Shown: positions 25,293 to 51,511, numbered from the stretch's first letter. The stretch is DNA of 64,000 nt from an uncultured Acidobacteriia bacterium (GCA_903876865.1 CAIRBY010000700.1:6-64005); one strand, 5' to 3'. The notes: generated by a model not told the origin, from the letters alone. Made by a program: numbers and translations.

Positions 25293-25306
25293 TGCAACCG
25301 TTTCCA
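25293..25306. promoter_or_regulatory. LacI/PurR-type operator (weaker copy)
   Basis: TGCAACCGTTTCCA fits TGnAAnCGnTTnCA. About 100 nt upstream of the TBDR start. Confidence 0.45.
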
Positions 25307-25362
25307 GTATTCAATATCATTTGAACCCAATTGTCAACCACTCCACCGATTATTTCCCTCAA

Positions 25363-25376
25363 CGCAACCGATTGCA
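25363..25376. promoter_or_regulatory. LacI/PurR-type operator
   Basis: CGCAACCGATTGCA. Identical to the site at 51406 and to the reverse complement of the site at 34229. Confidence 0.65.
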
Positions 25377-25379
25377 GGC

Positions 25380-26411
25380 TCAGTACGCTTCGAACATACG
25401 TTGGATTTCATTGATTTTGCTGGTCTTGGTCAAGGCAAGCATCAGCAGGATACGTGCCTGCTGCGGATTCAGGTTATCGCCGTCGACGAATTCCGGGTAG
25501 CGCTTGGCGGGCCGTCCGTTGCCGCCGCGCTGGCTATCCACCACGGGAATCCCCTTTGCCGCCACCTTCAACAGGGCGTCTGCCTGCTCCGGTGCGCCAG
25601 TGCCGGTTGGAAACGCTGCCAGCACGATGCCCTTGGCCTTCCCCTGCCCTACAGCGGCGTCCACGAGCACGCCGTCGGCCCCGACGTAGGAATAGACGAT
25701 GTAGACCTTGGGGAGGTCCGTGAGGCCAGTGACGTCGAACTCCGAATGGGTAGTGTGCAGCCGCAGCGGGCGGCGATAGAAACTCACGCGATCTTTGTCC
25801 ACCATGCCCAGATCGCCCACGTCGCCCGAATTCCAGGCATTGACCCGGTGGCTGATGGTCTTGCGCACATCCCGCGCGGCGTGGATTTCGTCGTTGACCA
25901 CCGCCATCACCCCCATGCCCGGGCTGAGTGGGTGGACTGCGACGCGCACGGCTTCGTAGAGGTTCTTGTCGCCATCGGCGCCGAGCGTTCCGTGCAGGCG
26001 CTGCGCGGCGGTAAGGATGACCGGCTTCTCGCTTTTCACAGTGAGATCGAGGAAGTATGCCACTTCTTCGAGCGCATTGGAGCCAATCGAGACCACCACC
26101 GCGTGAACCTCCGGTTCCTTGGCGAAAATCTGGTTGATCCGGTTGGCCAGACCCACCAGCATCGCCGTGGAAAAATCGCCGCTGCCGATCTTGCTGAATT
26201 CCTCCACTTCGATCCGGGCCTGTTCGCCGAGTTGGGGAATGTCCTTGATCAACTGCGCGCCCTCGATCCGGGTGTCCGGCGTGAAACCCGGACGAACGTG
26301 AGCGATCGTCCCTCCAGTGGCGATCAGACGCACGAGCGGCAGTGGCTTTGGTTGGGCGCAGAGCACCGCAGGGAACAACAAGCACAGACTGGCGAGCAGG
26401 CGATGATTCAT
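25380..26411 (-). CDS. periplasmic L-asparaginase (type II)
   Basis: Signal peptide and the catalytic motif LIATGGTIAH. Typical asparaginase/glutaminase layout. Confidence 0.9.
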   Translation of the reverse strand: MNHRLLASLCLLFPAVLCAQPKPLPLVRLIATGGTIAHVRPGFTPDTRIEGAQLIKDIPQLGEQARIEVEEFSKIGSGDFSTAMLVGLANRINQIFAKEPEVHAVVVSIGSNALEEVAYFLDLTVKSEKPVILTAAQRLHGTLGADGDKNLYEAVRVAVHPLSPGMGVMAVVNDEIHAARDVRKTISHRVNAWNSGDVGDLGMVDKDRVSFYRRPLRLHTTHSEFDVTGLTDLPKVYIVYSYVGADGVLVDAAVGQGKAKGIVLAAFPTGTGAPEQADALLKVAAKGIPVVDSQRGGNGRPAKRYPEFVDGDNLNPQQARILLMLALTKTSKINEIQRMFEAY

Positions 26412-26420
26412 GAGACTCTC

Positions 26421-27128
26421 CTATTTCTTGGACCCCGTTTGGGCCAGGTAATCGGCGGCGGCGTCGGCTTCTTCCGATTGCGGGAACTCCTTGACGATCT
26501 GCCGGTAGAGATCGGCCGCCTTCTGCCGTTGCTGAGCTGCCAGCGCGGCGTTCTTCTGGGCTTCGTATAACCGCGCCAGGTGAACGTGCTGTTGCGCCAG
26601 CAGGAACTTGATCAGCGACATTTCCGAATACTTCGGATACTGCCGGATGAAGTCCTCTTTCCCGGCAATGGATTTTTGCGTGGCGGGGATGTTGTCACCG
26701 GGTTCGTCGAAGCCGATCAGAGCGTACCGGGCATCGGCGGCGCGTTCCCCCGCCGGCGCAACTCGAAGGTACTCCCGAAACGCGGCAAGATCGTAGTGGT
26801 AACCGAGTTTGTCTTCGACGATATTCACGCCGTACGGCTTCAGCCGGCGTTGAATGACCGCCCCAAGGGCGGGATCGATATTGCCGTGGGCGGACTTGTC
26901 CTTGGACATAAGATCCGCCAGATCGAGCGAGGTTTCACCCATCGCATACAGTGCATCGAGGCGGTCGGAGGCTTTTGGTGCGTTTTTGCTCCGGTCATAG
27001 TCCTTGCCGATTTCGGCCAGCATCTGATTGACGATCCGGGGATCGAGTATGACGTCGTACGCCAGCGCCGGCAAGAGGAACCACGCGCCGATCAGGAGCG
27101 CTATATTGAGCGGAGAGGATCTAGCCAT
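26421..27128 (-). CDS. secreted helical-repeat hypothetical protein
   Basis: Start re-chosen at MARSSPLNIALLIGAWFLLPALA (signal/anchor). The C-terminal region is TPR-like helices. First gene of the asparaginase operon. Confidence 0.55.
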   Translation of the reverse strand: MARSSPLNIALLIGAWFLLPALAYDVILDPRIVNQMLAEIGKDYDRSKNAPKASDRLDALYAMGETSLDLADLMSKDKSAHGNIDPALGAVIQRRLKPYGVNIVEDKLGYHYDLAAFREYLRVAPAGERAADARYALIGFDEPGDNIPATQKSIAGKEDFIRQYPKYSEMSLIKFLLAQQHVHLARLYEAQKNAALAAQQRQKAADLYRQIVKEFPQSEEADAAADYLAQTGSKK

Positions 27129-27540
27129 GTCCGATCTAACCACGTCTGAAATTCTGCCTGCCAAGTATCTCGATCTCTTCGAAAAAAAGGCCTTCGCCAG
27201 CCTCGCCACCATGATGCCGGGCGGCCAACCGCAAGTCACACCGGTGTGGGTGGACTTCGATGGCGTTCATATTCTGGTGAATTCCGCCAAGGGCCGCCAA
27301 AAAGACCGCAACATGCGGGAACGGCCGCAAGTGGCCCTGGCGCTGATGGATCCGGAGAACGCGTACCGTTATCTGGAAATCCGCGGCCGCGTCGTGGAAG
27401 TAACGGACGAAGGGGCGGACGCGCACATCGACAAGATGGCAAAGAAATATCTCGGCGCGGACTCGTATCCGTTCCGCCAGGCCGGCGAAACACGTGTCAT
27501 CTACAAAATCGCCCCCGAGCATGTGACCACGATGGGCTGA
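27127..27540 (+). CDS. PPOX-class (pyridoxamine 5'-phosphate oxidase fold) probable F420-dependent enzyme
   Basis: Start re-chosen at MSDLTTSEIL. FASLATMMPGGQPQVTPVWVDFDGVHILVNSAKGRQKDRNMRERPQVALALMDPENAYRYLEIRGRV is the typical split-barrel signature. Confidence 0.7.
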   Translation: MSDLTTSEILPAKYLDLFEKKAFASLATMMPGGQPQVTPVWVDFDGVHILVNSAKGRQKDRNMRERPQVALALMDPENAYRYLEIRGRVVEVTDEGADAHIDKMAKKYLGADSYPFRQAGETRVIYKIAPEHVTTMG

Positions 27541-27557
27541 GTAGCTTGCCTGCGCGA

Positions 27558-28997
27558 TCATAGTTTCAGCACCATTCCGATCATCGGCCAGTAGATAGCG
27601 ACGATCAGCACCAGCACTACGCCTTCGAAGATCGAGAGCACGAGACCGACTTTGAACATGTCCTTGGCCTCGAAGTAGCCGAAGGCGTACCCCAACATCA
27701 ATACCGCCGATTGGTAGACAAAGAGTTTGCCCGCCGAAGCATAGGTACAGATCATCGCCACCGCGGTCGGATCGAAACCATGATCCGTGGCATATTTCAC
27801 GGCCACCGGAAGCAGCGTGCTCAACATCGAGATTTCGCTGGCGAGCAGAAAGTGGTAAAGGAACGAGGCCCAGTACAGGGCGCAGGCGGCCAGGGTAGAA
27901 CCCGTCATCAGCGGCCCGATCCAACTCATCATGAAGTGCGTGAGCACATCCAGCGCTTTGGTTTTGACCAGCACTTCGCCCATGCCTAAAGCGCCACCGA
28001 CAAAAACGATGAGCAGAAAATTGATCTTGCGCACCTGAGCGGTATTCAACACTCCAATTCGAGGCAGAGTGACGATAATCCCTCCGCCGATCGCGATCAC
28101 GGCGGGATTCAACCCGTGCAGGAAATCGGTGGACCAGAACAGAATCGCCAGCACCAGCCAGAGCAGGCTCTTCTTCTCGTTGCTACTCCAGGGCCCGAGT
28201 TCGGAAGCCGCGCGCGCCAGATATTCCCGGCCTCCAGGCAAGTCCTGTTTTTCCGGCGGGTAGAGCCAAAGAGCGCAGAGCCAGCAACCAAATACCGAAA
28301 GGACGATCGCCGGCAGGAACGCAATCAGGTATTGGCTCCACAGGATGGGCTTGCCGGTCATCTTCTCCACCACGCCGCGGGTCAGGATGGCGGCGCCGCC
28401 GGCGAGCATCATTTTGTTGAACAGGCCGCAGCAATACGTGATCATCACGAACATGCCGCGTCCGATATTGCTGCCCGCCTCGAGCCCGAACGCAGCCACG
28501 ATGCCGACTGCGATGGGGCCGACGATCGTGATTTGCGCCAGACCCGACGGCACCAGGAAATTGAGAATCAGCACGAACGTGATCATGCTGAACAGCAGCC
28601 GCCGGTACGAAGTCCCGATGATCCGCATCACACCGTAACCAATGCGGCGGGCCAGGCCGGAGCGCGACGCGGCCTCGCCCATCAGCATGGCTCCGAAGAG
28701 AAACCAGGGAGTGGAGTCGGCGAAGCCGCTGAACGCCACCTCGAACTTCGTTACTTTCAATGCCCAGAACAGGAAAAGACCGATCAGCGTGGTCACGCCA
28801 TAATCAACCGGCTCGGTGATCCACAACACAGCCATGAACAGGACGATGGCGAGCGCGTGCTGCGCCGACGCCGCAATCGTCATCGGGGCGAACCAAAAGG
28901 CCACCCCAAGCACGGGCCCGAGGATCGACCCGACCCACATCTTGCGCGAAAAGTACTCTCCGCCGGTGACGTGTGGGGACACTGCGGACGTGCTCAT
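27558..28997 (-). CDS. DASS/SLC13-type anion transporter
   Basis: Start re-chosen at the ATG at 28997, which overlaps the upstream stop (ATGA). 479 aa and polytopic. Collinear paralogue of 44021-45463. The 705-aa track ORF is an upstream read-through artefact. Confidence 0.85.
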   Translation of the reverse strand: MSTSAVSPHVTGGEYFSRKMWVGSILGPVLGVAFWFAPMTIAASAQHALAIVLFMAVLWITEPVDYGVTTLIGLFLFWALKVTKFEVAFSGFADSTPWFLFGAMLMGEAASRSGLARRIGYGVMRIIGTSYRRLLFSMITFVLILNFLVPSGLAQITIVGPIAVGIVAAFGLEAGSNIGRGMFVMITYCCGLFNKMMLAGGAAILTRGVVEKMTGKPILWSQYLIAFLPAIVLSVFGCWLCALWLYPPEKQDLPGGREYLARAASELGPWSSNEKKSLLWLVLAILFWSTDFLHGLNPAVIAIGGGIIVTLPRIGVLNTAQVRKINFLLIVFVGGALGMGEVLVKTKALDVLTHFMMSWIGPLMTGSTLAACALYWASFLYHFLLASEISMLSTLLPVAVKYATDHGFDPTAVAMICTYASAGKLFVYQSAVLMLGYAFGYFEAKDMFKVGLVLSIFEGVVLVLIVAIYWPMIGMVLKL

Positions 28998-31786
28998 GCG
29001 GTGGCCATCCCCGCCCGCAGAGCCTCGCGGTCCACCGGTATCGAACGGAGGCGAACTCCCGTGGCGTGATAGATCGCATTCAGGATGGCCGGCGGCGTAG
29101 GCACGGTTGCGATCTCGGAAATCCCTTTCGCGCCGTACGGACCCTCCGGAAACGGATCCTCCACGATTTCCAGCCGGACCGTAGGCGCATCCGTGGATCG
29201 CGGCAGTCCCAGGCGGCCGAACGTGACCTTCTTGTGCAATGGACGCCCTTCTTTCATTGGGTAATCCTCCGTCAGCGTGTAGCCTTGCGACATGACAATC
29301 GCGCCAATCAACTGCCCGCGAATCTGCTGCGGGTTGATGGTGACGCCCACATCGTGAGCGGCGATCATGTGGAGCAACCGGACTTCTCCAGTGCGCTCCT
29401 CCACTTCGACGATGGCTGCCTGCGTGCCGTACGCGTAGGTCGGATAGTTGCGATACTCCTCGCGCGGCACCCTCCTCTTCGCTTCCTCGTCCGAAAGCGG
29501 ATAGGTCTTGGGAGAAACGTACACGGCTTCGGCACGAAGCGAGATCCCTTCGCGCCACGCTCGCGCCGCCACCTGGTCCAGGGTCATGACGATTTCTTCC
29601 TCGCGATACTGCGACCACTGCAGCCGGATTACGTCGTTTTCCCAAATCAGTTCGCCGGCCGGGCGCCCCACCCACGCCCCCACGGTTTCCAGGATTTTGT
29701 GCTTAAACTTTTTACCAGCCATGACCACGGCATTGCCGCTGATGAGCGTCTGCCGTTCCCCCGACGCGGAACGGTGGGGGTGTGTCAACTGCGTATCGCC
29801 AGAGACGATGCGCAGCCGGGTTGGGTCTAGCCCGGTGGTCTGACAGGCGAGTTGCACCATCGTGGTCCGAATCGCCTGCCCCATATCGACCACCGACGCG
29901 CGCAGCTCCACCTGGCCGTCCGGCAGCAGGATGAACGTGGCGCCCGAGTCATCCACTTTGCCCTTGCCCGCACCGACATTCTTGTATCCTGCCGCCACGC
30001 CATACCCGATGCGATACCCGGGACGAGCTAACTGTGCGAACTTCGGCCACTCCTCCGCGAAAGCCCGGCGGCAGGCTTCGAGCGTAGGGATCGCGCCGAC
30101 GCTGGAAGGCAGGTACTGGCCCGTGATCGTCACATCGCCTTCCTCGAGCATGTTGATGCGGCGGATCTCAAATGGGTCGATCTCGAGCTTCAGCGCGAGC
30201 TCGTCCATCAACTGCTCCATCGCGACCGCGGCCTGATTGATGCCGTAGCCCCGGAAGGCGCCCCCATTGGCGTTGTTGGTGAGCACGGCGAGCCCTTCCA
30301 CGCGCACATTCGGCACGCGGTAGGGACCGCATGAGAAGATGCAGGCCTGATCGATCACGCGCGGGCTGTTGCCCGTGTAAGGACCCGCGTCGGAGACCAG
30401 CCGGGCATCCACGGCCAGCAGGCGTCCCCAGCGATCCGCGGCCACGCGATAGTCCATTTCGTAAGCGTGCCGCTTCACTCCGTTGTGCAGGTTCTCCTCG
30501 CGGGTGAGCGTAAGTTTGACCGGCTTGCGCAGATGATAAGCCGCCACGGCGAGGACAGCTTCGACGCTGATCTCCAGTTTGCCGCCGAAGCCGCCGCCCA
30601 GTGGCGTGCAGCGAATGCGCACCTGTTCTTTCTGTAGATCGAGAACTTTCACCAATTGCTCGCGCGTTTCAAACGGAGCCTGTTGCGGCACGTTGATGGT
30701 GACCGCGCCGTCGACGATCTCCGCAATGGCAGACACCGGTTCGAGATAGGCGTGGTCCACGCGCTGGGTGGAAAAATGCCCTTCCACCACGTAGCTGGCG
30801 GTGGCGAACGCGCTCTCTACATCGCCGGTTCGGTGGGTCAGATGTTTGCAGACGTTGCCGGAGGGATGCAATTGCGGAGCGCCGTCGCGCAGCGCCGCTT
30901 CGGGCGAGAAGACGCCGGGGAGCACCTTGTACTCGACCCGGACCAGACGCGCGGCCTCCTGAGCCTCGCGGAGGGTCCTGGCGACGACCAGGGCGACGAT
31001 ATCGCCGGTGTAACGCACGCGGTCGCGGCAGAATACCGGCTGATCCGGCTTGGTACGCCCATGCGCATTCAGGCCGGGCACGTCCTCGTGAGTGAAGATG
31101 CGGACTACTCCGGGAGCCTTCCTGGCGGCCTCGGTATCGATCTGTAGAATTTCGGCATGTGGGTGTCCGCTCCAGACGATCTGGCCGAAGAGCATGCCGG
31201 GCCTTGTCAGGTCGTCGGCGAAGCGGAGTTGTCCGGTCACACTCTGGACGCCATCGACAAGAGCAGCCGAGACTCCCATCGGGCCGCTAGCGGGCTGCCA
31301 GGCAGCGAATTCGGCGGGGTGCGCCATCCAATAGGCCGCCTTCTGCACAGCTTCAAAAATCTGCACGTACCCGGTACAGCGGCAGATCACATCTTTCAGG
31401 GCTTCGCGGATTTCCGGCAATTGCGGGGCGGGATTGCGGTCCAGCAGGGCTTTGGCCGCCATGATCATCCCCGGGATGCAGAAGCCGCACTGCACGGCGC
31501 CACATTCGAGGAATGCCGCCTGCAACGGATGGAGGCTTCCGTTGCAGGGAGTCAGACTCTCAATGGTTTCGACCCGGACTCCCTGGGCACGGCGCAGATT
31601 GTAGAGACAGGCGTCCTGTGGCTGGCCGTCCACCAGAACGATACAGGTGCCGCAGTCACCGGTGCTGCAACCCTCTTTCGCGCCGCACAGATTCAGATCG
31701 TGGCGCAACAGGCAAAGCAGAGAGTCGCGCTCGTCCACGCTACGCTGTACTGCAATGCCATTGACGACCAGGGCGATATCGATCAC
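28994..31786 (-). CDS. fused [2Fe-2S]/molybdopterin aldehyde-oxidoreductase-like enzyme (Mop-type, no FAD domain)
   Basis: The N-terminus carries two [2Fe-2S] motifs (GCSTGDCGTCIV; CGFCIPGM...CRCTGY), directly fused to an XDH-family Mo-binding domain (GGAFRGYG...). At 930 aa its architecture matches Desulfovibrio gigas Mop. Confidence 0.88.
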   Translation of the reverse strand: MIDIALVVNGIAVQRSVDERDSLLCLLRHDLNLCGAKEGCSTGDCGTCIVLVDGQPQDACLYNLRRAQGVRVETIESLTPCNGSLHPLQAAFLECGAVQCGFCIPGMIMAAKALLDRNPAPQLPEIREALKDVICRCTGYVQIFEAVQKAAYWMAHPAEFAAWQPASGPMGVSAALVDGVQSVTGQLRFADDLTRPGMLFGQIVWSGHPHAEILQIDTEAARKAPGVVRIFTHEDVPGLNAHGRTKPDQPVFCRDRVRYTGDIVALVVARTLREAQEAARLVRVEYKVLPGVFSPEAALRDGAPQLHPSGNVCKHLTHRTGDVESAFATASYVVEGHFSTQRVDHAYLEPVSAIAEIVDGAVTINVPQQAPFETREQLVKVLDLQKEQVRIRCTPLGGGFGGKLEISVEAVLAVAAYHLRKPVKLTLTREENLHNGVKRHAYEMDYRVAADRWGRLLAVDARLVSDAGPYTGNSPRVIDQACIFSCGPYRVPNVRVEGLAVLTNNANGGAFRGYGINQAAVAMEQLMDELALKLEIDPFEIRRINMLEEGDVTITGQYLPSSVGAIPTLEACRRAFAEEWPKFAQLARPGYRIGYGVAAGYKNVGAGKGKVDDSGATFILLPDGQVELRASVVDMGQAIRTTMVQLACQTTGLDPTRLRIVSGDTQLTHPHRSASGERQTLISGNAVVMAGKKFKHKILETVGAWVGRPAGELIWENDVIRLQWSQYREEEIVMTLDQVAARAWREGISLRAEAVYVSPKTYPLSDEEAKRRVPREEYRNYPTYAYGTQAAIVEVEERTGEVRLLHMIAAHDVGVTINPQQIRGQLIGAIVMSQGYTLTEDYPMKEGRPLHKKVTFGRLGLPRSTDAPTVRLEIVEDPFPEGPYGAKGISEIATVPTPPAILNAIYHATGVRLRSIPVDREALRAGMATA

Positions 31787-31823: not shown

Positions 31824-31837
31824 TGGAACCGTTTGCG
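31824..31837. promoter_or_regulatory. LacI/PurR-type operator (weaker copy)
   Basis: TGGAACCGTTTGCG, about 40 nt upstream of the Mop-like start. Confidence 0.45.
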
Positions 31838-31959: not shown

Positions 31960-31973
31960 TGCAATCGATTGCG
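31960..31973. promoter_or_regulatory. LacI/PurR-type operator
   Basis: TGCAATCGATTGCG with a perfect 12-bp palindromic core. Lies between the divergent Mop-like and lacI genes. Confidence 0.7.
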
Positions 31974-32018
31974 TTAGGGATTCCCGGGAGCACAGCCTTA
32001 GGTTGACAGTCCTGGCGA

Positions 32019-33059: not shown

Positions 33060-33060
33060 G

Positions 33061-34078: not shown

Positions 34079-34092
34079 TGGAACCGATTGCA
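34079..34092. promoter_or_regulatory. LacI/PurR-type operator
   Basis: TGGAACCGATTGCA, immediately 5' of the fgd SD. Confidence 0.6.
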
Positions 34093-34228: not shown

Positions 34229-34242
34229 TGCAATCGGTTGCG
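34229..34242. promoter_or_regulatory. LacI/PurR-type operator
   Basis: TGCAATCGGTTGCG, 164 nt upstream of the fgd start. Confidence 0.65.
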
Positions 34243-40822: not shown

Positions 40823-40858
40823 GTTCGACGATTCCACTACGAGAAAGAAGCCAAGACA

Positions 40859-42702: not shown

Positions 42703-42739
42703 TGGCGGCGCTTGCCACTACACCAATTCGGACGAAACT

Positions 42740-44011: not shown

Positions 44012-44020
44012 GAGCCCCTT

Positions 44021-45463: not shown

Positions 45464-45479
45464 TCGGCCTGCACTGGGG
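45438..45479 (+). repeat. 23-bp tandem duplication across the transporter stop codon
   Basis: TGATCGGCCTGAACTGGGG at 45438-45456 and TGATCGGCCTGCACTGGGG at 45461-45479. Period 23, one mismatch. Confidence 0.8.
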
Positions 45480-45482
45480 TCA

Positions 45483-46691
45483 ATGACCGCCGGCACATTC
45501 CGTGCGTTTCGCAACCGGAATTTCCGCTGGTTCTTCGCCGGCCAAGTCCTATCGGTTACCGGCACCTGGGCACAGCGCGTGGCGTTGGGCTGGCTGGCCT
45601 ACCGGCTGACCCATTCGTCGCTATTCCTTGGAATGGCGGCGTTCGCATCCAGCGCGCCGGCCTTCCTGCTCACACCGATCGCAGGCGTCATCGCCGATCG
45701 CGTGGACCGCCGGCAACTGCTGATTTGGGCGCAAGTATTCGGCCTGCTGCAGGCCGCGGGACTCGCAGGAGCGACCTTGACCGGCGTCATCACGCCCAAC
45801 TGGCTGCTGTTCTTCTCCCTGATCCTGGGGATCATCAACGCATTTGAGAACCCGGTGAGGCAATCGTTCTACACCGGGATGGTGGGGCCTGAAGACCTTT
45901 CCAATGCCATTGCGCTGAACTCATCGCTGGTGAATGCGGCGCGAGTGGTTGGTCCCGCTCTGGCCGGCGCGGTTGTGGCCGCTTGGGGCGAGGGCATCTG
46001 TTTCGTTCTGAACTCTCTCAGCTTTGTCGCCGTGATTTTCGCCCTGATGATGATGAAGGTGGATGCCCAGCTCCGGACTGCCGACCCTGCCGGCGGTTGG
46101 GAGTTGCTGCGCCAGGGCTTTGCCTTCATCCGTCAATCCCCAGTCCTGAGCGCCATGTTGCTGAACCTCGCGATTTTCAGCGTGGCGGGCAGTCCGTATC
46201 TCACGCTGCTGCCCGTACTGACTGTGGAACGCCTGAGTTCCGGGCCCGTGGGACTCGGCTGGCTGATCTCAGCTTCCGGAGCCGGCGCCATCGTCGCCTC
46301 CCTCGCGCTTGCGTCGAAACAATCGACCAGCGGCCTGCCCGCCGCTTCGTTCGCAGCGACCGCAGTCGCGGGTGTCGCTCTGGTGGTACTCGGTTTTTCC
46401 CGCAGCTTCGCACTCTCTCTGGTAATGTTGCTCCTGATCGGGGCGGGTTATGTCCTGATGCTGGCGGGCACCCAAACCATGATGCAGAGTCTGGCAAGCG
46501 AGAGCATGCGCGGGCGCGTCATGAGCTTCTACTCGCTGGTATTCCTCGGAGTCCCACCGCTCGGCAGCCTGGCCGCCGGCTTCGCGGCGGAGAGGCTGCA
46601 CGCCAGCATGACAGTCGCGCTCGGTGGCGGGCTATGCGCCCTGGCTGCTGTTGCCGTCGCGCGTCGCAGTTACGGCAGTACGGGCAACTGA
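45483..46691 (+). CDS. MFS transporter
   Basis: About 12 hydrophobic segments. The N-terminus FRNRNFRWFFAGQVLSVTGTW is typical of the MFS_3/EntS-like group. The 3' end overlaps the convergent cofH by 22 nt. Confidence 0.85.
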   Translation: MTAGTFRAFRNRNFRWFFAGQVLSVTGTWAQRVALGWLAYRLTHSSLFLGMAAFASSAPAFLLTPIAGVIADRVDRRQLLIWAQVFGLLQAAGLAGATLTGVITPNWLLFFSLILGIINAFENPVRQSFYTGMVGPEDLSNAIALNSSLVNAARVVGPALAGAVVAAWGEGICFVLNSLSFVAVIFALMMMKVDAQLRTADPAGGWELLRQGFAFIRQSPVLSAMLLNLAIFSVAGSPYLTLLPVLTVERLSSGPVGLGWLISASGAGAIVASLALASKQSTSGLPAASFAATAVAGVALVVLGFSRSFALSLVMLLLIGAGYVLMLAGTQTMMQSLASESMRGRVMSFYSLVFLGVPPLGSLAAGFAAERLHASMTVALGGGLCALAAVAVARRSYGSTGN

Positions 46692-47953
46692 TCTGAGATC
46701 TGCCTCGGCTTCTGGAAACGGAAGCCTTCGGAGGCGACCAACTCCCGGTAGGAACCGAAGTAATCGCGATCGGTATCCAGTGCATCCAGGGGTTCGGCCG
46801 GCACCGGTTCCTCAGCGAGAATCCGGCGCACGCGATAGGTCGTGTATCGCTCCACCGGAACTCTGCCGGCATCGCGCGCGGCGATGCGTAAATCCACTGG
46901 CCGCAGGAAATGCCCGTGGGACGCGCCTGCCGCGGTGGAAATGCTCTCGTTCATGAGCGTGCCGCCCAGATCGTCCGCACCGGCGCCCAGGCACTGCTTG
47001 GCCAGTTCGATGCCTTGTTTCACCCAACTCGCCTGAATGTGAGCGATATGCCCGTTCAACATGATGCGCGAGACGGCGTACATGCGCAGCACTTCGTCCT
47101 TCGTAGCGCCCTCGCGGATTCCCTGCACCAGTCCCTTGGTATACATGGGCGCTTCACTGTGAATGAAGCTGAGCGGCACGAACTCGGTGAAGCCGCCGGT
47201 TTCTTTCTGAATGTCGCGCAACAGCGCCAGATGCTCAGCGCAGTGGCGGGCGGTTTCGACGTGACCGTACATGATCGTCGAAGTGGTCGGGATCCCCAGT
47301 TGGTGCGCAGTAGAGATGATCTCCCGCCAGCGCGCGGTGGAAATGCGGCCCGGCGAAATCAGGTCGCGTACTTTATCGTTCAGAATTTCGGCTGATGTGC
47401 CAGGTAGCGAGCCAACGCCCGCTTCCTTCAAGGCGATCAGATATTCCTTCGGGCTACAGCCGGAACACTCGGCTCCGTACAAGACTTCCTCCGGAGAAAA
47501 GCCGTGGATATGGATCCCGGGGACCGCCGTTTTGATCGCGCGGCATAGTTCCACGTAGAGCGACCCTTGCATGCGCGGAGGCAGCCCCGCCTGCACGCAG
47601 ACTTCAGTCGCGCCCAGGTCCCACGCCTCTGTGGCGCGCCGCACTACTTCTTCCACGGGCAGGTAATAACCTTCTTCGGCGCGATGACCGCGGCTGAAGG
47701 CGCAGAAGCCGCAGCGCTTGACGCAGACGTTGGTGAAGTTGATATTGCGGTTGACCACATAGGTGACGCGGTCCCCATTGGCCCATTGCCGGAGTTGATC
47801 CGCGACACCGATCACCGCCCGTAAGTCCGCGCCCGCGGCGCTGAACAGCAACTCCCCTTCCGCAATACCGGTCTCCCCGCCGTCGAGACAACGGTCGAGA
47901 ATGGCAGCAATTGCGGGATCGCAGGCGTTCAGCAGCTTGTTCACGTTCAGCAT
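46670..47953 (-). CDS. cofH: FO synthase subunit 2 (radical SAM)
   Basis: Start re-chosen at MLNVNKLL. Radical SAM motif CVKRCGFCAF. Collinear CofH blocks. Confidence 0.9.
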   Translation of the reverse strand: MLNVNKLLNACDPAIAAILDRCLDGGETGIAEGELLFSAAGADLRAVIGVADQLRQWANGDRVTYVVNRNINFTNVCVKRCGFCAFSRGHRAEEGYYLPVEEVVRRATEAWDLGATEVCVQAGLPPRMQGSLYVELCRAIKTAVPGIHIHGFSPEEVLYGAECSGCSPKEYLIALKEAGVGSLPGTSAEILNDKVRDLISPGRISTARWREIISTAHQLGIPTTSTIMYGHVETARHCAEHLALLRDIQKETGGFTEFVPLSFIHSEAPMYTKGLVQGIREGATKDEVLRMYAVSRIMLNGHIAHIQASWVKQGIELAKQCLGAGADDLGGTLMNESISTAAGASHGHFLRPVDLRIAARDAGRVPVERYTTYRVRRILAEEPVPAEPLDALDTDRDYFGSYRELVASEGFRFQKPRQISDQLPVLP

Positions 47954-47964
47954 GGCTCCTCGAT

Positions 47965-49116
47965 TCACCAGCACTCTTGTTCCCTGCGCACCAGACCTGC
48001 CGCATCCGCCAACCCGCCAAGGCGGGAAGCGCTCGGCGCCTGCCACAGCGTTGAATTTTCTCTCAAATGCTCCGGGTACACCGAAAGCCTCTCGCGCAAT
48101 TCGAAGCCCGCGAGTTCGGTGACCTGTTTCAGCCGGCCCACTTCCGGCCAGGCTTTTTCCGGGTTGATATGATCCAGCGTCACCGGCGAGATCCCGCCCC
48201 AATCGTTGATGCCGGAGCGCAGCAGCGCGCCATAGTGATCCGGCGTCAGGTTGGGCGGAATCTGGACATTCACCTGCAAGCCAAATATCAGGCGCGCCAC
48301 CGCCGCGGTCCGCATCAGGTCCAGCGGTTCGGGCTCCGGCCACTGCGCAAAGCGCGTGTCGGCCTTGGCGCGGAAATTCTGCACGATGACTTCCTGGATG
48401 TGGCCGTAGCGCTCATGCACTGCTTGGATCGCGAAGAGCGCATCGACACGCTCATCCAAGGTTTCTCCGATGCCGATTAGAATCCCTGTGGTAAACGGCA
48501 CGCCGCATTCACCGGCGGCTTCGAGCGTATGCAATCGCACCGCGGGCACCTTGTCGGGGCAAGCGTGATGCGCCTGTCCTGGGCGCAACAGGCGCGGACT
48601 AGTGGACTCCAGCATCATTCCCATACTCGGGCTGAAGGCTTTCAACTGCTGGATTTCCGCGAGGGTCATGCTGCCTGGATTGGCGTGCGGCACCAATCCG
48701 GTTTCCTCGAATACCAGCCGGCACATGGCCGCCAGATAATCGATGGTCGACTGATAGCCCCGCTCCGTCAGCCATGACTGATACTCCGGATAGCGCAATT
48801 CGGGACGTTCTCCGAGGCTGAATAGCGCCTCCTTGCATCCCGCGCGGCGGCCCGCCTCGGCCACGGCAAGCACTTCCTCCGGCGTCATCGTGTGTGCGCG
48901 CGGATCTCCTGGAGTTCGTACGAAGGTACAGTATGCGCAGACGTCGCGGCAAAGGTTGGTCAACGGTATAAAAACCTTGCGCGAGTAAGTGATGATCCGT
49001 CCGGTGCGCTGCCTGCGAACCTCAGCCGCCGCGTCGAACAACTCTTCCAGCGCACCGCCATCGGCGTGGATCAGAGCGTAAGCTTCATCGCGGGTGAGGT
49101 TGTGTAAGTCGCGCAT
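47965..49116 (-). CDS. cofG: FO synthase subunit 1 (radical SAM)
   Basis: Radical SAM motif CRDVCAYCTF and collinear CofG blocks. 11 nt upstream of cofH. Confidence 0.9.
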   Translation of the reverse strand: MRDLHNLTRDEAYALIHADGGALEELFDAAAEVRRQRTGRIITYSRKVFIPLTNLCRDVCAYCTFVRTPGDPRAHTMTPEEVLAVAEAGRRAGCKEALFSLGERPELRYPEYQSWLTERGYQSTIDYLAAMCRLVFEETGLVPHANPGSMTLAEIQQLKAFSPSMGMMLESTSPRLLRPGQAHHACPDKVPAVRLHTLEAAGECGVPFTTGILIGIGETLDERVDALFAIQAVHERYGHIQEVIVQNFRAKADTRFAQWPEPEPLDLMRTAAVARLIFGLQVNVQIPPNLTPDHYGALLRSGINDWGGISPVTLDHINPEKAWPEVGRLKQVTELAGFELRERLSVYPEHLRENSTLWQAPSASRLGGLADAAGLVRREQECW

Positions 49117-49119
49117 CGG

Positions 49120-50187
49120 TTACGACCGCTCCGAAATCCGCATCACGAACCAAAAGGTGCCAAGCGCGAAGATCATCACCGAGCAGGCTCTAACCAGTAG
49201 CGCGCTGTTCCGTTGCCGGCCCAGATAAACAATCACCGGGAGCAGCGCGGCGGTAATGCAGAGTTGGCCCGCCTCCACGCCGAAATTGAAAGCGAACAAA
49301 GCCGTCGTCAGCAAATGACGCGAAAGATCCAGCTCCTTTAACGCGGCGGCAAAGCCGAAGCCATGTACCAGCCCAAAGAAGAAGGTGATCATCCAACGGC
49401 GGTCGAACTTCTTGAAGAAGAGATTCTCGAGCGCGATATACATGATGGAAAGCGCGATCCCGGACTCCACAATCCAGCTTGGCAGATTGACGATGCCGAA
49501 GGCCGCCAGCGCCAGCGTGATGCTGTGCGCCACCGTGAAGGAGGTCACAATCTTAAGCAGCGTCTTAAACGACCCGCCGATCAGTAACAGTCCCAGTAGA
49601 AACGCGATATGGTCATAGCCCGTGAAAATGTGCAGCACGCCCATGCGGACGAATTGTAAGATGCTCTGCAACGTCGAAGGCTGCGCATTGACGGAGAAAC
49701 TTCGTCCCGCTTCGAAGACGAACTCCTGTACCTGCCCGCCCGCGGTGATCTTCGCCAGTGTCCGGTGCGTTGCCAACACATCCCGCAGTAGATCGCACCG
49801 TAAAACCAGGCGGCCAAAGCTCTGCCCCTTATCGCCGAAGAGCGCTTGCGTCTGAATGAATTCGTGGCCTTCGGGATCCTTCCACGTCGCAAGTGGTCCC
49901 AGCGCGCCTGCGACATCCCGCCCGCCTTCCGTCACCCCTAGTTTCGAGAAGATATATTGCCGCAACTTGTCTTGCGAGCCGGCGAGCTCCGCTGCATCCA
50001 CGCGGCCATCGTGATTGGCATCCAGGTCCAGCAGCAGATCCAGTTCCGGCAAGGGGAGTTTGAGGTTCCAACGCACCTGGTGTTCTTCCACGATGACTTC
50101 GGCGTAAGACAGGCTGACAGTGTGGGCGGAGAGCAGGGGGGCGAAGAGAAGGAGAGAAAGCCAGAAGATGTGCTTTCGGGAGATCAT
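49120..50187 (-). CDS. HupE/UreJ_2-family membrane protein with N-terminal EF-hand-containing periplasmic domain
   Basis: Signal peptide, then the canonical 12-residue EF-hand loop DANHDGRVDAAE. The C-terminal half has HupE-like TM blocks (GYDHIAFLLGL, SFTVAHSITLA, GLVHGFGFA, FNFGVEAGQL). Its stop is 3 nt before the cofG start. Confidence 0.75.
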   Translation of the reverse strand: MISRKHIFWLSLLLFAPLLSAHTVSLSYAEVIVEEHQVRWNLKLPLPELDLLLDLDANHDGRVDAAELAGSQDKLRQYIFSKLGVTEGGRDVAGALGPLATWKDPEGHEFIQTQALFGDKGQSFGRLVLRCDLLRDVLATHRTLAKITAGGQVQEFVFEAGRSFSVNAQPSTLQSILQFVRMGVLHIFTGYDHIAFLLGLLLIGGSFKTLLKIVTSFTVAHSITLALAAFGIVNLPSWIVESGIALSIMYIALENLFFKKFDRRWMITFFFGLVHGFGFAAALKELDLSRHLLTTALFAFNFGVEAGQLCITAALLPVIVYLGRQRNSALLVRACSVMIFALGTFWFVMRISERS

Positions 50188-50216
50188 TTCAGCCTTTGTG
50201 ATGCAGTTTGCTGCTT

Positions 50217-50247
50217 CCAGGAGGACAGCTTAATGCCATCCTCCTGG
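50217..50247 (-). terminator. 9-bp stem hairpin between the bicupin and hupE-like genes
   Basis: CCAGGAGGA-13 nt-TCCTCCTGG. No U-tract, so terminator function is uncertain. Confidence 0.3.
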
Positions 50248-50278
50248 AGTATAGCTGGGACAACTTGGTTACGGCGCC

Positions 50279-51391
50279 TTACTTGCCGCTCGGCGGATCC
50301 ATCGTCACAAGACGCGGAACCACCGCAATGTAGCGCAACAACTGGTTGGGATCTTCACTCCAGTGCTGGTGCCAGTGAGGACCGGCAGGCACGGCGCAGA
50401 TCGAGCCCTCCTTGTAGGTGGCCAGGTGGGCCTTCCCTTTGGCGAGTTCATCTTTGAAAGCTTCCAGGCTATCCACGGGAGCCCAGTAGTCATGCCCGCG
50501 CCCGGCGAGGAAGACGAACCAGGGTTGTCCATCGTGCTTGTGGGCGTTTGCTTTCTCGCGAAGCAACTGGCTGATGTGGGTATTGGGGTGCGTCTTATGG
50601 CCGGAGGTCGCGCCCAGGTCGAAGAACGAACTGGCAGTGCCGCGGTATTCGCGCGGAACGACCTTCAACTCCCGCAGGTCTTTGTAGAAGGAAACGTTGA
50701 GCGTCGCGGTTTCCAACGTCTTGCCGCGGGCGGCGTCGGTCTCGTCCTTGCTCTCAGCGCCGATGCGCGATTCCGCCTTCACGTAAGGATAGAGATTCAC
50801 GCCGTATCCGACCATCTCCACCACGCGGGTGGGAACTTTGCCGGTATTGGTGTGGCGAATGTAGTGGTCGGGCGGAATGGCCCAGAAGGAGCCCTTACCC
50901 CACTCATAGTGCTTTAAGGGCATGCCACCATCTTCCGGAGGCGCGTCGTTGTACCACTCGGTCTTGCCCTCGCCTTGCACCACGTAGTACATCGGCTCGC
51001 CGTTGTAGCCGAAGGTATGCCATGAGGTGGACTGTCCGGGCTGCAACTCGGTCACCATCACCAGTTGTCCCTTGCCGCCGAAATCGAGAATGACCCCTTT
51101 GTGACCCATTGGCGTCGGGTACAACGCCAGGGTATAGGAATCCACGCAATAGCCGGTCATCCGTTTCTTGTTCAGTTCCGTCCATGCGGCCTTGGTCGCT
51201 TCTGGAGCTTTGCCAGTCACTTCCAACTTCCAGACGTTGTCGATGTAGTAACTCAGTTCTTTATCTTGGGGGATGTCGGTCTGGCCGGGCGTACGATGTG
51301 CCCATGCCGTTGCCCGCGCGCCGCCCTGCGCAAATAGTGTGGTGGCTCCCAGACTGAACGCCAGCAGGGTCACCAGTAGTCTCTGATTCAT
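50279..51391 (-). CDS. secreted bicupin protein (paralogue of 20658-21941)
   Basis: Start re-chosen at MNQRLLVTLLAFSLGATTLFAQG. Two cupin barrels (ELQPGQSTSWHTF...VVQGEGK; HKHDGQ...GPHWHQHW). Confidence 0.7.
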   Translation of the reverse strand: MNQRLLVTLLAFSLGATTLFAQGGARATAWAHRTPGQTDIPQDKELSYYIDNVWKLEVTGKAPEATKAAWTELNKKRMTGYCVDSYTLALYPTPMGHKGVILDFGGKGQLVMVTELQPGQSTSWHTFGYNGEPMYYVVQGEGKTEWYNDAPPEDGGMPLKHYEWGKGSFWAIPPDHYIRHTNTGKVPTRVVEMVGYGVNLYPYVKAESRIGAESKDETDAARGKTLETATLNVSFYKDLRELKVVPREYRGTASSFFDLGATSGHKTHPNTHISQLLREKANAHKHDGQPWFVFLAGRGHDYWAPVDSLEAFKDELAKGKAHLATYKEGSICAVPAGPHWHQHWSEDPNQLLRYIAVVPRLVTMDPPSGK

Positions 51392-51405
51392 TGCACGATC
51401 TCCTT

Positions 51406-51419
51406 CGCAACCGATTGCA
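51406..51419. promoter_or_regulatory. LacI/PurR-type operator
   Basis: CGCAACCGATTGCA, directly 5' of the bicupin SD. Confidence 0.65.
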
Positions 51420-51497
51420 CTATTACAACCCATGCGAATAGGGAGTGTCAAGCGCTATAGCCCTAAATAATACCTAGAAAGCGGGGAATCCGGCTGG

Positions 51498-51511
51498 TGC
51501 AACCGATTGCA
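51498..51511. promoter_or_regulatory. LacI/PurR-type operator
   Basis: TGCAACCGATTGCA, 107 nt upstream of the bicupin start. Confidence 0.7.

What the first reader, a model, noticed from the sequence alone, without database searches (positions are those of the whole stretch)
25293..51511. Ten paired copies of a PurR/LacI-type palindrome link F420 genes, two Mo-hydroxylase operons, a TonB receptor and a bicupin into one putative regulon
Seven strong sites are read directly from the sequence:
- CGCAACCGATTGCA, 25363-25376
- TGCAATCGATTGCG, 31960-31973
- TGGAACCGATTGCA, 34079-34092
- TGCAATCGGTTGCG, 34229-34242
- TGCAATCGATTGCA, 35113-35126 (perfect 14-bp palindrome)
- CGCAACCGATTGCA, 51406-51419
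- TGCAACCGATTGCA, 51498-51511

Three weaker partner sites:
- TGCAACCGTTTCCA, 25293-25306
- TGGAACCGTTTGCG, 31824-31837
- AGGAAACGGTTGCA, 34962-34975

All ten sites are intergenic. Each of the five occupied intergenic regions has exactly two sites, 70-151 bp apart, a geometry compatible with repressor looping in the LacI/GalR family. A given 12-bp core is expected far less than once by chance in 64 kb.

The targets are:
- the TonB receptor (22044-25190);
- the divergent Mop-like/DASS operon and the lacI gene at 32019;
- fgd;
- divergent cofC and the hydrolase-coxGSL-amidohydrolase-LLM-coxM-M20-DASS operon;
- the bicupin at 50279-51391.

The half-site GCAA-N-CG-N-TTGC is close to the E. coli PurR box (GCAAACGTTTGC). 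That hints at a purine or N-heterocycle effector rather than a sugar.

The promoter-proximal sites of fgd and the bicupin sit directly 5' of the SD in near-identical leaders (operator, AGGAG, ATCGTGC), which suggests a duplicated control module.
Basis: partly seen in the sequence, partly recalled or inferred. Interest (0 to 1): 0.72.

Follow-up and report, generated by a model that had tools for sequence, protein, structure and literature searches.

The report
LacI-type regulon coupling F420 to catabolism
An uncultured soil acidobacterium carries a conserved set of repressor-binding sites that appear to put synthesis and recharging of the rare cofactor F420, two molybdenum hydroxylases, transporters and metal-binding cupin proteins under one LacI-family regulator, giving a testable clue to what F420 is used for in this phylum.

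Summary
All ten 14-bp palindromes (YGCAA-N-CG-N-TTGCR) sit at the stated coordinates. Six match the exact 12-bp core where 0.12 are expected. All ten lie in the 5.4% of the region that is intergenic, and a PWM separates them cleanly from everything else in the window.

The regulon reading is supported by comparison with relatives. Fifteen loci encode orthologues of the 32019 regulator (49-90% identity, all Acidobacteriota) and carry the same motif about 100 times more densely than 153 control LacI loci. The sites stay with the same gene families even where gene order differs.

An eleventh, degenerate site (32031) overlaps the lacI promoter; it is strong in most orthologues, which implies autoregulation. 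The regulon is larger than described: it also includes cofG/cofH, hupE and a cupin-MoxR-VWA operon, plus cofD/cofE in relatives.

Three side claims are weak:
- The PurR resemblance is generic to the LacI family; the protein is closer to CcpA and RbsR.
- There is no tetramerisation helix to support LacI-style looping, and helical phasing of site pairs is only suggestive.
- The "duplicated leader" is 31 nt, mostly operator plus Shine-Dalgarno.

The effector is unknown. Gene content points to an N-containing aromatic or heteroaromatic acid. This is a new member of a known kind and moderately interesting.

The parts
25293..25306 (.). Operator, promoter-proximal, TonB-receptor operon (TGCAACCGTTTCCA)
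   Evidence: 20.3 bits. [quoted passage not shown] A homologous 67-70 bp pair occurs in L081, L083 and L086.
25363..25376 (.). Operator, distal, 70 bp from the proximal site and 4 nt past the asparaginase stop codon
   Evidence: 21.6 bits. A site directly after the asparaginase stop is conserved in L001, L081, L086 and L093.
31824..31837 (.). [quoted passage not shown]
   Evidence: 18.2 bits. L090 has TGGAACCGTTTGCA at the equivalent place.
31960..31973 (.). Operator between the divergent Mo-hydroxylase and lacI promoters, 71 bp upstream of the weak site at 32031
   Evidence: 22.4 bits.
32031..32044 (.).
   Evidence: 2 mismatches. In 10 orthologues a strong site sits at the same place after a TTGACA-17/18-TAnnn element; L090 and L093 carry an equivalent site next to lacI. 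The closest relative, L091, also has a GG centre.
34079..34092 (.). Operator in the fgd leader, 20 bp upstream of the GTG start codon
   Evidence: 21.8 bits. Conserved in L091 (21.1 bits).
34229..34242 (.). Distal operator of fgd, 150 bp from the proximal site and 11 nt past the cofC stop codon
   Evidence: 21.6 bits. L091 has a partner site 153 bp away.
34962..34975 (.). Operator upstream of cofC, 80 bp from the start at 34888
   Evidence: 16.7 bits. L091 has AGGAAGCGGTTGCA at the same place (12.5 bits).
35113..35126 (.). Perfect palindromic operator overlapping the last base of the -10 hexamer and the +1 region of the hydrolase-coxGSL operon promoter
   Evidence: 24.5 bits.
51406..51419 (.). 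Operator in the bicupin leader, 21 bp upstream of the ATG
   Evidence: 21.6 bits. L003 has sites upstream of its bicupin orthologue.
51498..51511 (.). Distal operator of the bicupin operon, 92 bp from the proximal site and 51 bp past the cofE stop codon
   Evidence: 23.7 bits.
32019..33059 (+). LacI-family regulator, the predicted repressor. The start codon is uncertain (ATG 32019 or TTG 32040); the conserved protein begins near residue 18.
   Evidence: Pfam LacI HTH plus Peripla_BP_1/3. The orthologue group runs from 90% to 49% identity, then a gap to 40%. The recognition helix and hinge are invariant. Closest solved relatives are CcpA, RbsR and PurR.
32003..32031 (+). Sigma-70-like promoter of lacI (TTGACA-17-TACACT)
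   Evidence: The same architecture is seen in orthologues. This is a prediction only.
35084..35113 (+). Sigma-70-like promoter of the hydrolase-coxGSL operon (TTGACA-18-TACCAT)
   Evidence: This is a prediction only.
15018..25190 (-). TonB-dependent receptor, bicupin (427 aa), unknown, VWA, MoxR AAA+, DUF58, unknown, VWA: a contiguous same-strand gene string
   Evidence: Pfam. The cupin-VWA-MoxR synteny and the sites upstream of the cupin or TonB genes are conserved.
27558..31786 (-). Fused 2Fe-2S/Mo-cofactor hydroxylase (MOP-like, no FAD domain) and a DASS anion symporter
   Evidence: Pfam, NCBIfam below all cut-offs, PDB best hit Desulfovibrio aldehyde oxidoreductase.
33061..34065 (-). [quoted passage not shown]
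   Evidence: NCBIfam TIGR03554, 475 bits against a cut-off of 420.
34253..34888 (-). cofC (F420 biosynthesis guanylyltransferase)
   Evidence: NCBIfam TIGR03552, 138.5 bits against a cut-off of 105.
35227..46691 (+). Operon: alpha/beta hydrolase, coxG, coxS, coxL, cyclic amidohydrolase, F420-type LLM oxidoreductase, coxM, NaaA-like M20 aminohydrolase, DASS symporter, MFS_3 transporter
   Evidence: The same gene string follows lacI directly in L004, L005, L083, L084 and L088.
46670..51391 (-). Operon: secreted bicupin, HupE/UreJ-type membrane protein, cofG, cofH (FO synthase)
   Evidence: The genes are contiguous on one strand. L003 has sites upstream of its HupE and bicupin orthologues.
51562..53231 (-). 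cofD-cofE. There is no site upstream here, but these genes are site-preceded regulon members in relatives.
   Evidence: Pfam. Sites lie between lacI and divergent cofD-cofE in L001, L002, L081, L089 and L093, and upstream of cofE in L086. No site in 53232-53404.
27145..27540 (+). It is a conserved neighbour with no operator of its own.
   Evidence: tblastn with neighbours from L081, L083 and L090. NCBIfam TIGR03618, 109.5 bits against a cut-off of 79.
25380..27239 (-). Conserved unknown protein (true start probably near 27100) and a secreted type II asparaginase. No operator of their own in the window; in L086 they are part of a site-controlled operon.

Best explanation
The palindromes are operators of the LacI-family protein encoded at 32019-33059. 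It most likely acts as a dimeric repressor.

Mechanism, in steps:
1. Each half-site (YGCAA) is read by one helix-turn-helix. The hinge helices open the central CpG, as in PurR and CcpA (inferred from conserved residues).
2. Promoter-proximal operators abut or overlap the -10/+1 region (abHyd-cox operon, lacI, TonB operon) or lie in the short 5' leader (fgd, bicupin, fused Mo-hydroxylase). Bound repressor would therefore block RNA polymerase binding or escape (inferred from position).
3. Distal operators 67-171 bp upstream probably stabilise occupancy cooperatively. In the two divergent regions they serve the second promoter.
4. A small-molecule effector would release the repressor. It is probably the substrate or an early intermediate of the pathway, and I infer an N-containing aromatic or heteroaromatic carboxylate.

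Genes then switched on together:
- uptake: TonB receptor, two DASS symporters, MFS transporter;
- two Mo-hydroxylases;
- a cyclic amidohydrolase, a NaaA-like aminohydrolase, a lactonase-like hydrolase and secreted bicupins;
- an F420-type LLM oxidoreductase;
- the means to make F420 (cofC, cofG/H; cofD/E in relatives) and to reduce it (fgd).

The repressor also controls its own gene.

Shown here: the sites, their non-random and intergenic placement, their conservation with the regulator, and the gene families.
Inferred: binding by this protein, the sign of regulation, cooperativity, and the identity of the effector.
For: - Site statistics and intergenic placement.
- The regulator has a LacI HTH and a PBP-type sensor domain. 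Its recognition helix (S-x-S-T-x-S-R-A-L-N) and hinge (A-R-x-L) are invariant across orthologues.
- The same 14-bp motif occurs in 15 orthologue loci. Across the 14 loci counted there are 42 sites of at least 15 bits and 23 of at least 18 bits in 225 kb. Controls have 1 site of at least 18 bits in 1.28 Mb and 5 in 0.70 Mb.
- Sites sit upstream of the same families despite rearrangement: lacI itself in 13 of 15 loci; cofD-cofE; cofE-Mo-hydroxylase-DASS; TonB receptors; the 427-aa cupin; bicupin; HupE; fgd; cofC.
- In five loci lacI is the first gene of the hydrolase-coxGSL-amidohydrolase-LLM-coxM operon.
- The promoter/operator architecture TTGACA-17/18-TAnnn followed directly by TGCAA is conserved.
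- Site positions, autoregulation and multiple sites per region match the general behaviour of LacI-family regulons (PMC4052901).
- F420 assignments are above curated cut-offs.
Against: - No binding or expression data exist.
- The motif is the generic LacI-family consensus, so a paralogue could in principle use the same sites.
- Only one 64-kb contig of this genome is available, so genome-wide specificity is untested.
- In the window, cofD-cofE, the PPOX gene and the asparaginase unit lack their own sites.
- The autoregulatory site is degenerate here.
- Promoters on the minus strand were read by eye and failed the scanner's criteria.
- 96% of LacI-family groups with assigned effectors sense carbohydrates (PMC4052901), which argues against my effector guess.
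- No tetramerisation helix is present to explain cooperation between distant sites.
Confidence: 0.8

Rival explanations
1. The regulon is real, but the effector is a sugar or sugar phosphate such as glucose-6-phosphate, as for most LacI-family proteins. The circuit would then tune F420 reduction and F420-dependent redox chemistry to carbon status, rather than responding to a catabolic substrate.
For: 96% of LacI-family groups with assigned effectors sense carbohydrates (PMC4052901). fgd uses glucose-6-phosphate and is a direct target. The closest solved relatives are CcpA and RbsR. In five orthologue loci lacI sits next to cofD-cofE rather than the hydroxylase operon.
Against: In five other loci lacI is the first gene of the hydroxylase/amidohydrolase operon. 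No sugar kinase, glycosidase or sugar transporter is found in any of the loci. The transporters are DASS, MFS and TonB types.
Confidence: 0.15
2. The protein behaves like PurR, binding DNA only with a co-repressor, or like CcpA as a dual regulator. In the dual case the distal sites centred about 60-70 bp upstream of the start site would activate, while the proximal sites repress.
For: PurR kept the RbsR-type motif but reversed its ligand logic (PMC4052901). Distal sites lie upstream of the -35 element in the TonB, lacI and bicupin regions.
Against: Every controlled promoter also has a site over -10/+1 or in the leader, which is a repressive position. The targets are catabolic and uptake genes, for which induction by release is the usual logic.
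Confidence: 0.1
3. The sites belong to a different, more global LacI-family regulator encoded elsewhere. The adjacent lacI gene would be only one of its targets.
For: The motif is the generic family consensus. A few equally good sites occur near unrelated LacI genes in control loci.
Against: Site density follows the orthologue group closely: roughly 100-fold above controls. A site sits on the orthologue's own promoter in 13 of 15 loci. No second LacI-family gene was found among the window ORFs scanned.
Confidence: 0.06
4. The palindromes are chance matches, or a repeat element or terminator hairpin with no regulatory role.
For: Three of the sites lie just past a stop codon.
Against: Six exact cores against 0.12 expected. 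No T-tract follows, and there is no loop for a hairpin. The flanks are not conserved, so this is not a repeat element. No Rfam family matches. The sites are conserved across orthologue loci whose regulators are only 49-90% identical.
Confidence: 0.01

Closest known systems
Local LacI/GalR-family catabolic regulons, as catalogued by Ravcheev et al. 2014 (PMC4052901)
   Same: A two-domain LacI-type regulator. An even palindrome with a central CG. Sites mostly 20-180 bp upstream of start codons. Autoregulation. More than one site in some regulatory regions. The regulator is encoded next to its targets.
   Different: The targets are not sugar genes. They are F420 biosynthesis and reduction genes, Mo-hydroxylases, amidohydrolases, cupins and a TonB receptor. 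The phylum Acidobacteria does not appear in that paper's text (0 occurrences). Inter-site distances are 67-171 bp, not the 13, 22 and 32 bp peaks reported there.
E. coli PurR and its operator (GCAAACGTTTGC)
   Same: Nearly the same half-site and central CpG. A non-sugar physiological theme is plausible.
   Different: The protein is not a PurR orthologue: 160 bits to PurR against 199 to CcpA and 194 to RbsR, and PurR orthologues are confined to three gammaproteobacterial orders. There are no purine biosynthesis targets. The ligand logic is probably induction rather than co-repression.
lac and gal operons with auxiliary operators (DNA looping); from general knowledge
   Same: A primary operator at or just downstream of the promoter plus an auxiliary operator tens to about 150 bp away. 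The 92-bp bicupin spacing equals the lac O1-O3 distance, by my recollection.
   Different: There is no C-terminal tetramerisation helix. Phasing is only suggestive. Two of the five pairs serve divergent promoters.
[quoted passage not shown]
   Same: The same enzyme-family logic: an XDH-family Mo enzyme (one of them fused Fe-S/Mo), a ring-reducing step that may use an F420-type LLM, a cyclic amidohydrolase and an M20 hydrolase.
   Different: The similarity is only family-level: HyuA 27%, XdhD 26%, YgeY 22% identity. No SsnA, YgeW, YgeX or YgfK counterpart is present. It is analogous, not orthologous.
5-Nitroanthranilate pathway of Bradyrhizobium sp. JS329 (aminohydrolase NaaA, cupin dioxygenase, lactone hydrolase; PMC10306065)
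   Same: The M20 protein is a strong NaaA homologue (312 bits to PDB 5K8M). The regulon also holds metal-binding cupins and a lactonase-like alpha/beta hydrolase.
   Different: The cupins here are secreted bicupins with no detectable sequence match to any solved structure, and the one that was modelled matches only generic bicupin folds. The Mo-hydroxylases, the cyclic amidohydrolase and the F420 enzymes have no counterpart in that pathway.

Membership tests
LacI/GalR-family transcription factor with its operator | N-terminal LacI-type helix-turn-helix plus a periplasmic-binding-protein-type sensor domain | tested here: met
   PF00356 (55.6 bits) with PF00532 and PF13377. The protein aligns end to end with CcpA, RbsR and PurR structures.
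LacI/GalR-family transcription factor with its operator | Even palindromic operator with a central CG | tested here: met
   The 14-bp palindrome YGCAA-N-CG-N-TTGCR, from 52 sites in the window and 14 loci. The family norm is given in PMC4052901.
LacI/GalR-family transcription factor with its operator | Hinge-helix leucine that inserts into the central CpG (Leu54 in PurR; from general knowledge) | tested here: met
   A69, R70 and L72 are invariant in 16 orthologues within the segment N-S-L-A-R-G-L-A. Equivalence to PurR Leu54 is by alignment, not by structure.
LacI/GalR-family transcription factor with its operator | Motif co-occurs with the regulator and precedes orthologous targets in related genomes | tested here: met
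   15 orthologue loci, with about 100-fold enrichment over 153 control loci.
LacI/GalR-family transcription factor with its operator | Physical binding of the protein to the sites and release by an effector | not testable with these tools
   Needs EMSA, footprinting or DAP-seq.
PurR (purine repressor) orthologous group | Orthology to E. coli PurR | tested here: not met
   PurR scores 160 bits, below CcpA (199) and RbsR (194). PurR orthologues are restricted to Enterobacterales, Pasteurellales and Vibrionales (PMC4052901).
PurR (purine repressor) orthologous group | Controls purine and pyrimidine biosynthesis genes | tested here: not met
   No pur or pyr gene is among the targets.
Lac-repressor-type looping system | C-terminal heptad-repeat tetramerisation helix | tested here: not met
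   The protein and all aligned orthologues end within a few residues of the core domain. The alignment to LacI stops at LacI residue 311 of 360, with only 21 query residues left.
Lac-repressor-type looping system | Auxiliary operators on the same face of the helix as the primary operator | tested here: inconclusive
   Eight spacing classes give R = 0.82 at a period of about 11.5 bp, permutation P about 0.01. The window alone gives P = 0.13. The classes and the period range were chosen after seeing the data.
Bacterial F420 biosynthesis and recharge set | cofC, cofD, cofE, cofG, cofH and fgd present | tested here: met
   CofC 138.5 bits against 105, CofG 459 against 213, CofH 468 against 374. 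FGD 475 against 420. CofD and CofE by Pfam.
Reductive uric acid degradation cluster (PMC12507026) | SsnA-type amidohydrolase together with HyuA, YgeY, YgeW/UacY and YgeX orthologues | tested here: not met
   blastp of the E. coli K-12 proteins against the window proteins gives no hit for SsnA, YgeW, YgeX or YgfK; HyuA reaches 27% and YgeY 22% identity.
5-Nitroanthranilate (Naa) pathway | NaaA-type M20 aminohydrolase | tested here: met
   312 bits, E = 6e-92, over residues 33-439, to PDB 5K8M. Substrate specificity is unknown.
5-Nitroanthranilate (Naa) pathway | 5-Nitrosalicylate dioxygenase-type cupin | tested here: not met
   Neither cupin matches any PDB sequence at E below 0.01. The AF2 model of the 427-aa cupin matches bicupins only generically, TM 0.4-0.5.

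The most novel reading that the evidence does not exclude
In Bryobacterales-like Acidobacteriota, F420 is not a housekeeping cofactor. It is made and reduced on demand, under a substrate-responsive LacI-family repressor, to power a so far undescribed catabolic route for an N-containing aromatic or heteroaromatic carboxylate. The proposed route is: Mo-dependent (de)hydroxylation, F420H2-dependent ring reduction by an LLM or PPOX enzyme, ring opening by a cyclic amidohydrolase, and NaaA-like hydrolytic deamination. It would be fed by TonB- and DASS-mediated uptake and by periplasmic cupins. If true, this would be the first assigned physiological role, and the first dedicated transcriptional control, of F420 in this phylum.
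Probability: 0.35. Interest if true: 0.72.

Novelty: new member of a known kind. Interest (0 to 1): 0.55.

Why it matters
F420 biosynthesis genes are known to occur in Acidobacteria. The 2021 review of the cofactor states that no experimental study had addressed its role in bacteria outside Actinobacteria (PMC8498797). My literature searches found no paper on transcriptional control of F420 genes by a LacI-type regulator.

This regulon gives a concrete hypothesis that can be tested in the laboratory. It names one regulator, one 14-bp operator, seven transcription units and a defined set of enzymes whose common substrate could be found by screening ligands against the purified repressor.

It also adds a rare non-carbohydrate regulon to the LacI family. 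Finally, it flags a conserved gene set that recurs across uncultured soil acidobacteria: Mo-hydroxylases, an F420-type LLM, a cyclic amidohydrolase, a NaaA-like hydrolase and secreted bicupins.

Tried and rejected
- PurR-specific reading: rejected. The regulator is closer to CcpA and RbsR, and the motif is generic to the family.
- Orthology with the E. coli reductive urate cluster: rejected. Similarity is only family-level, and SsnA, YgeW and YgeX are absent.
- Function of the cupins: no PDB sequence hit. An AF2 model (pLDDT 84.8) followed by Foldseek gave only generic bicupin matches. No function could be assigned.
- Duplicated fgd/bicupin control module: the local alignment is 31 nt, mostly operator plus Shine-Dalgarno, and it is not conserved in the closest relative.
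- RNA elements such as a Moco riboswitch, and tRNAs: none found.
- Promoter and terminator scanner: only the two plus-strand promoters passed. Terminator-like hits were at shuffle level.
- Identity of the organism: an exact-sequence look-up found the contig (65.4 kb) in NCBI, Logan and ENA, but without a name.
I used the rest as controls.
- Literature on F420 with LacI, or on regulation of F420 biosynthesis: nothing relevant.
- Additional weak sites upstream of cofD, the PPOX gene, hupE and the 427-aa cupin: none.

Full report
**1. Observation**

- The exact core GCAANCGNTTGC occurs six times against 0.12 expected. None of 100 dinucleotide-preserving shuffles reaches six.
- Allowing two mismatches to TGCAANCGNTTGCA gives 13 hits against 3.3 expected. 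These are the ten listed sites, two at 1149 and 1477, and one at 32031.
- A symmetrised weight matrix scores the ten sites at 16.7-24.5 bits, and nothing else in 64 kb exceeds 12.8. That matrix was trained on the ten sites, so it shows a gap rather than independent support. The exact-pattern counts are independent.

**2. Gene map**

Pfam and NCBIfam searches give this layout.

| Coordinates | Strand | Content |
|---|---|---|
| 15018-25190 | - | TonB-dependent receptor, 427-aa bicupin, unknown, VWA, MoxR, DUF58, unknown, VWA |
| 25380-27239 | - | secreted type II asparaginase and a conserved unknown |
| 27558-31786 | - | DASS symporter and a fused 2Fe-2S/Mo-cofactor hydroxylase |
| 32019-33059 | + | LacI-family regulator |
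| 33061-34065 | - | fgd (475 bits against a cut-off of 420) |
| 34253-34888 | - | cofC |
| 35227-46691 | + | alpha/beta hydrolase, coxG, coxS, coxL, cyclic amidohydrolase, F420-type LLM, coxM, M20, DASS, MFS_3 |
| 46670-51391 | - | cofH, cofG, HupE/UreJ, secreted bicupin |
| 51562-53231 | - | cofE, cofD |

Only 5.4% of 17.9-55.2 kb is intergenic, and all ten sites lie there. Four other intergenic gaps have no site at all.

**3. An eleventh site and autoregulation**

The hit at 32031-32044 (TGCAAGGGCTTGCC) abuts the -10 hexamer of a TTGACA-17-TACACT promoter-like element.

In ten orthologous loci a strong site sits in the same position after a comparable TTGACA/G-17/18-TAnnn element. Two further loci, L090 and L093, carry an equivalent site next to lacI. 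This explains why upstream-extended ORF calls of orthologues read H-C-K-R-L-R, which is the codon string CAC TGC AAG CGN TTG CGN.

The closest relative (L091, regulator 90% identical) also has a GG centre. Weak self-repression may therefore be a trait of this sub-lineage.

The perfect palindrome at 35113 has the same relation to the TTGACA-18-TACCAT promoter of the hydrolase-cox operon.

These promoters are predictions. The minus-strand ones were read by eye and did not pass the scanner.

**4. Comparative test**

The regulator belongs to a sharply bounded orthologue group. Identity runs from 90% down to 49% and then drops to 40% for generic LacI or CcpA proteins. All named members are Acidobacteriota: Bryobacterales, Terriglobia and Blastocatellia.

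I obtained 15 orthologous loci, mapped window proteins onto them by tblastn, and scanned them with the matrix.

Enrichment:

| Set | Length | Sites of at least 18 bits |
|---|---|---|
| 14 orthologue loci | 225 kb | 23 |
| 75 control LacI loci | 1.28 Mb | 1 |
| 78 control LacI loci | 0.70 Mb | 5 |

Placement is more telling. The sites precede the same gene families although gene order differs:
- lacI itself, in 13 of 15 loci;
- divergent cofD-cofE (L001, L002, L081, L089, L093);
- a cofE-Mo-hydroxylase-DASS-unknown-asparaginase operon (L086);
- the fused hydroxylase (L090);
- TonB receptors (L003, L083, L087);
- the 427-aa cupin (L001, L003, L081, L086, L089, L093);
- the bicupin and HupE (L003);
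- fgd and cofC (L091).

In L004, L005, L083, L084 and L088, lacI is the first gene of the hydrolase-coxGSL-amidohydrolase-LLM-coxM operon.

The pooled motif is a 14-bp palindrome with uninformative flanks. The recognition helix and hinge residues of the protein are invariant.

**5. Mechanism**

The simplest reading is a dimeric LacI-family repressor.

Proximal operators sit over -10/+1 (abHyd-cox operon, lacI, TonB operon) or in short leaders 20-44 bp from the start codon (fgd, bicupin, fused hydroxylase).

In the two divergent regions, each of the two sites is plausibly the main operator of one promoter.

In the three same-strand regions there is a true proximal/distal pair. The 67-70 bp module just past the asparaginase stop codon is conserved in four genomes, whether the downstream gene is a TonB receptor or the cupin.

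The protein has no LacI-type tetramerisation helix, so classical tetramer looping is not supported.

Spacings collapsed to eight homologous classes show phasing at about 11.5 bp (R = 0.82, permutation P about 0.01). The window alone is not significant (P = 0.13), and the classes and period range were chosen after seeing the data. I treat cooperative binding as possible but unproven.

**6. What the regulon is for**

The F420 part is firm. cofC, cofG, cofH and fgd exceed curated cut-offs, cofD and cofE are clear by Pfam, and a PPOX-class F420 enzyme is present. The operon LLM is best matched by F420-dependent LLM families, though below their cut-offs.

The catabolic part is family-level only:
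- Both Mo enzymes fall below every equivalog cut-off.
- Their closest solved relatives are 4-hydroxybenzoyl-CoA reductase, 6-hydroxypseudooxynicotine dehydrogenase and quinoline 2-oxidoreductase for coxL, and the Desulfovibrio aldehyde oxidoreductase for the fused enzyme.
- The amidohydrolase is a cyclic amidohydrolase of the hydantoinase, allantoinase and dihydroorotase type.
- The M20 protein is a strong homologue of 5-nitroanthranilate aminohydrolase (312 bits).

Two described pathways use the same enzyme logic:
- The 5-nitroanthranilate pathway: aminohydrolase, cupin dioxygenase, lactone hydrolase (PMC10306065).

Direct comparison with the E. coli urate cluster shows no orthology.

The two cupins are distant paralogues. 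The family of the 427-aa cupin has an invariant His cluster in the C-terminal barrel. The modelled 427-aa cupin matches only generic bicupin folds.

I therefore infer an N-containing aromatic or heteroaromatic carboxylate as substrate and likely inducer. I mark this as inference.

**7.

- The PurR-box resemblance is not informative. A central CG palindrome is found in 1173 of 1303 LacI-family factors, and RbsR and PurR share a motif (PMC4052901). The protein is closer to CcpA and RbsR than to PurR.
- The fgd/bicupin leader similarity is 31 nt: operator, AGGAG and ATCGTGC. In L091 the fgd operator lies about 45 nt further from the same Shine-Dalgarno and start context. A duplicated module is not supported.

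**8. Novelty and limits**

The regulatory device is ordinary for the family. The content is new:
- 96% of LacI-family groups with an assigned pathway control carbohydrate metabolism.
- The F420 review records no experimental work on the cofactor's role in bacteria outside Actinobacteria.
- I found no paper on such regulation.

The limits are these. There are no binding or expression data. Only a 64-kb contig of this uncultured organism is available. The promoters are predicted. The effector is unknown.

Noticed in passing
window 27145-27540 (+): A gene for a TIGR03618 F420-dependent PPOX-class oxidoreductase (109.5 bits against a cut-off of 79). It lies convergent with the DASS gene and overlaps the 5' part of ORF 26421-27239, whose true start must therefore be near 27100. 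The same gene neighbours the regulator in L081, L083 and L090.
   Followed up: yes
window 32019-32070: The start codon of the regulator is unclear. The ATG used by the 90%-identical relative (L091) corresponds to ACT here. The remaining options are ATG 32019, which lies inside the predicted promoter, or TTG 32040, which lies inside the degenerate operator and would be nearly leaderless.
   Followed up: partly
window 42683-44011 (+): The M20 protein is a close homologue of 5-nitroanthranilate aminohydrolase NaaA (PDB 5K8M, 312 bits). NaaA performs hydrolytic deamination of an aromatic amine. This hints at an amino-substituted aromatic or heteroaromatic acid intermediate.
   Followed up: partly
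window 20658-21941 (-) and 50279-51391 (-): The two secreted cupins are distant paralogues (21% identity). The family of the 427-aa protein has invariant His275, 288, 290, 344 and 346 in the C-terminal barrel. The AF2 model is confident (pLDDT 84.8) but matches only generic bicupins. A HupE/UreJ-type membrane protein follows the bicupin, which may point to a Ni- or Co-loaded enzyme.
   Followed up: partly
window 15018-20642 (-): A MoxR AAA+, VWA and DUF58 gene set follows the 427-aa cupin. The cupin, VWA and MoxR genes keep that order in L001 and L089 and (with MoxR at the locus edge) L086. It could be a maturation system for the Mo or cupin enzymes (CoxD/CoxE-like), or an unrelated Bat-type operon.
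   Followed up: no
window 13994-14995 (+); L087 18583-19638; L089 13445-14446: A beta-propeller protein (weak THOC3-type Pfam hit) recurs near the regulator in distant orthologue loci. No operator is seen next to it in the window.
   Followed up: no
L086 14344-14357 and 14936-14949: Two strong sites (21.7 and 23.2 bits) flank a small HHH_3-domain gene and an unannotated 451-aa gene downstream of the MFS_3 gene. These may be further regulon members that are absent from the window.
   Followed up: no
L087 2728-2741: A strong site (20.3 bits) lies 87 bp upstream of an alanine dehydrogenase gene, next to cofD-cofC, in a locus whose regulator is 52% identical. L087 and L003 lack the autoregulatory site.
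   Followed up: partly
window 46670-48343 (-) and 47965-49116 (-): The longest cofH ORF overlaps the 3' end of cofG by about 380 bp. The CofH domain begins near residue 145-166, so the real start is probably close to the cofG stop (translational coupling).
   Followed up: no
window 11092-13758 (-): An NMT1/THI5-type substrate-binding protein and an ABC ATPase lie just outside the cluster, with no operator. No Rfam family or tRNA occurs anywhere in the window.
   Followed up: no
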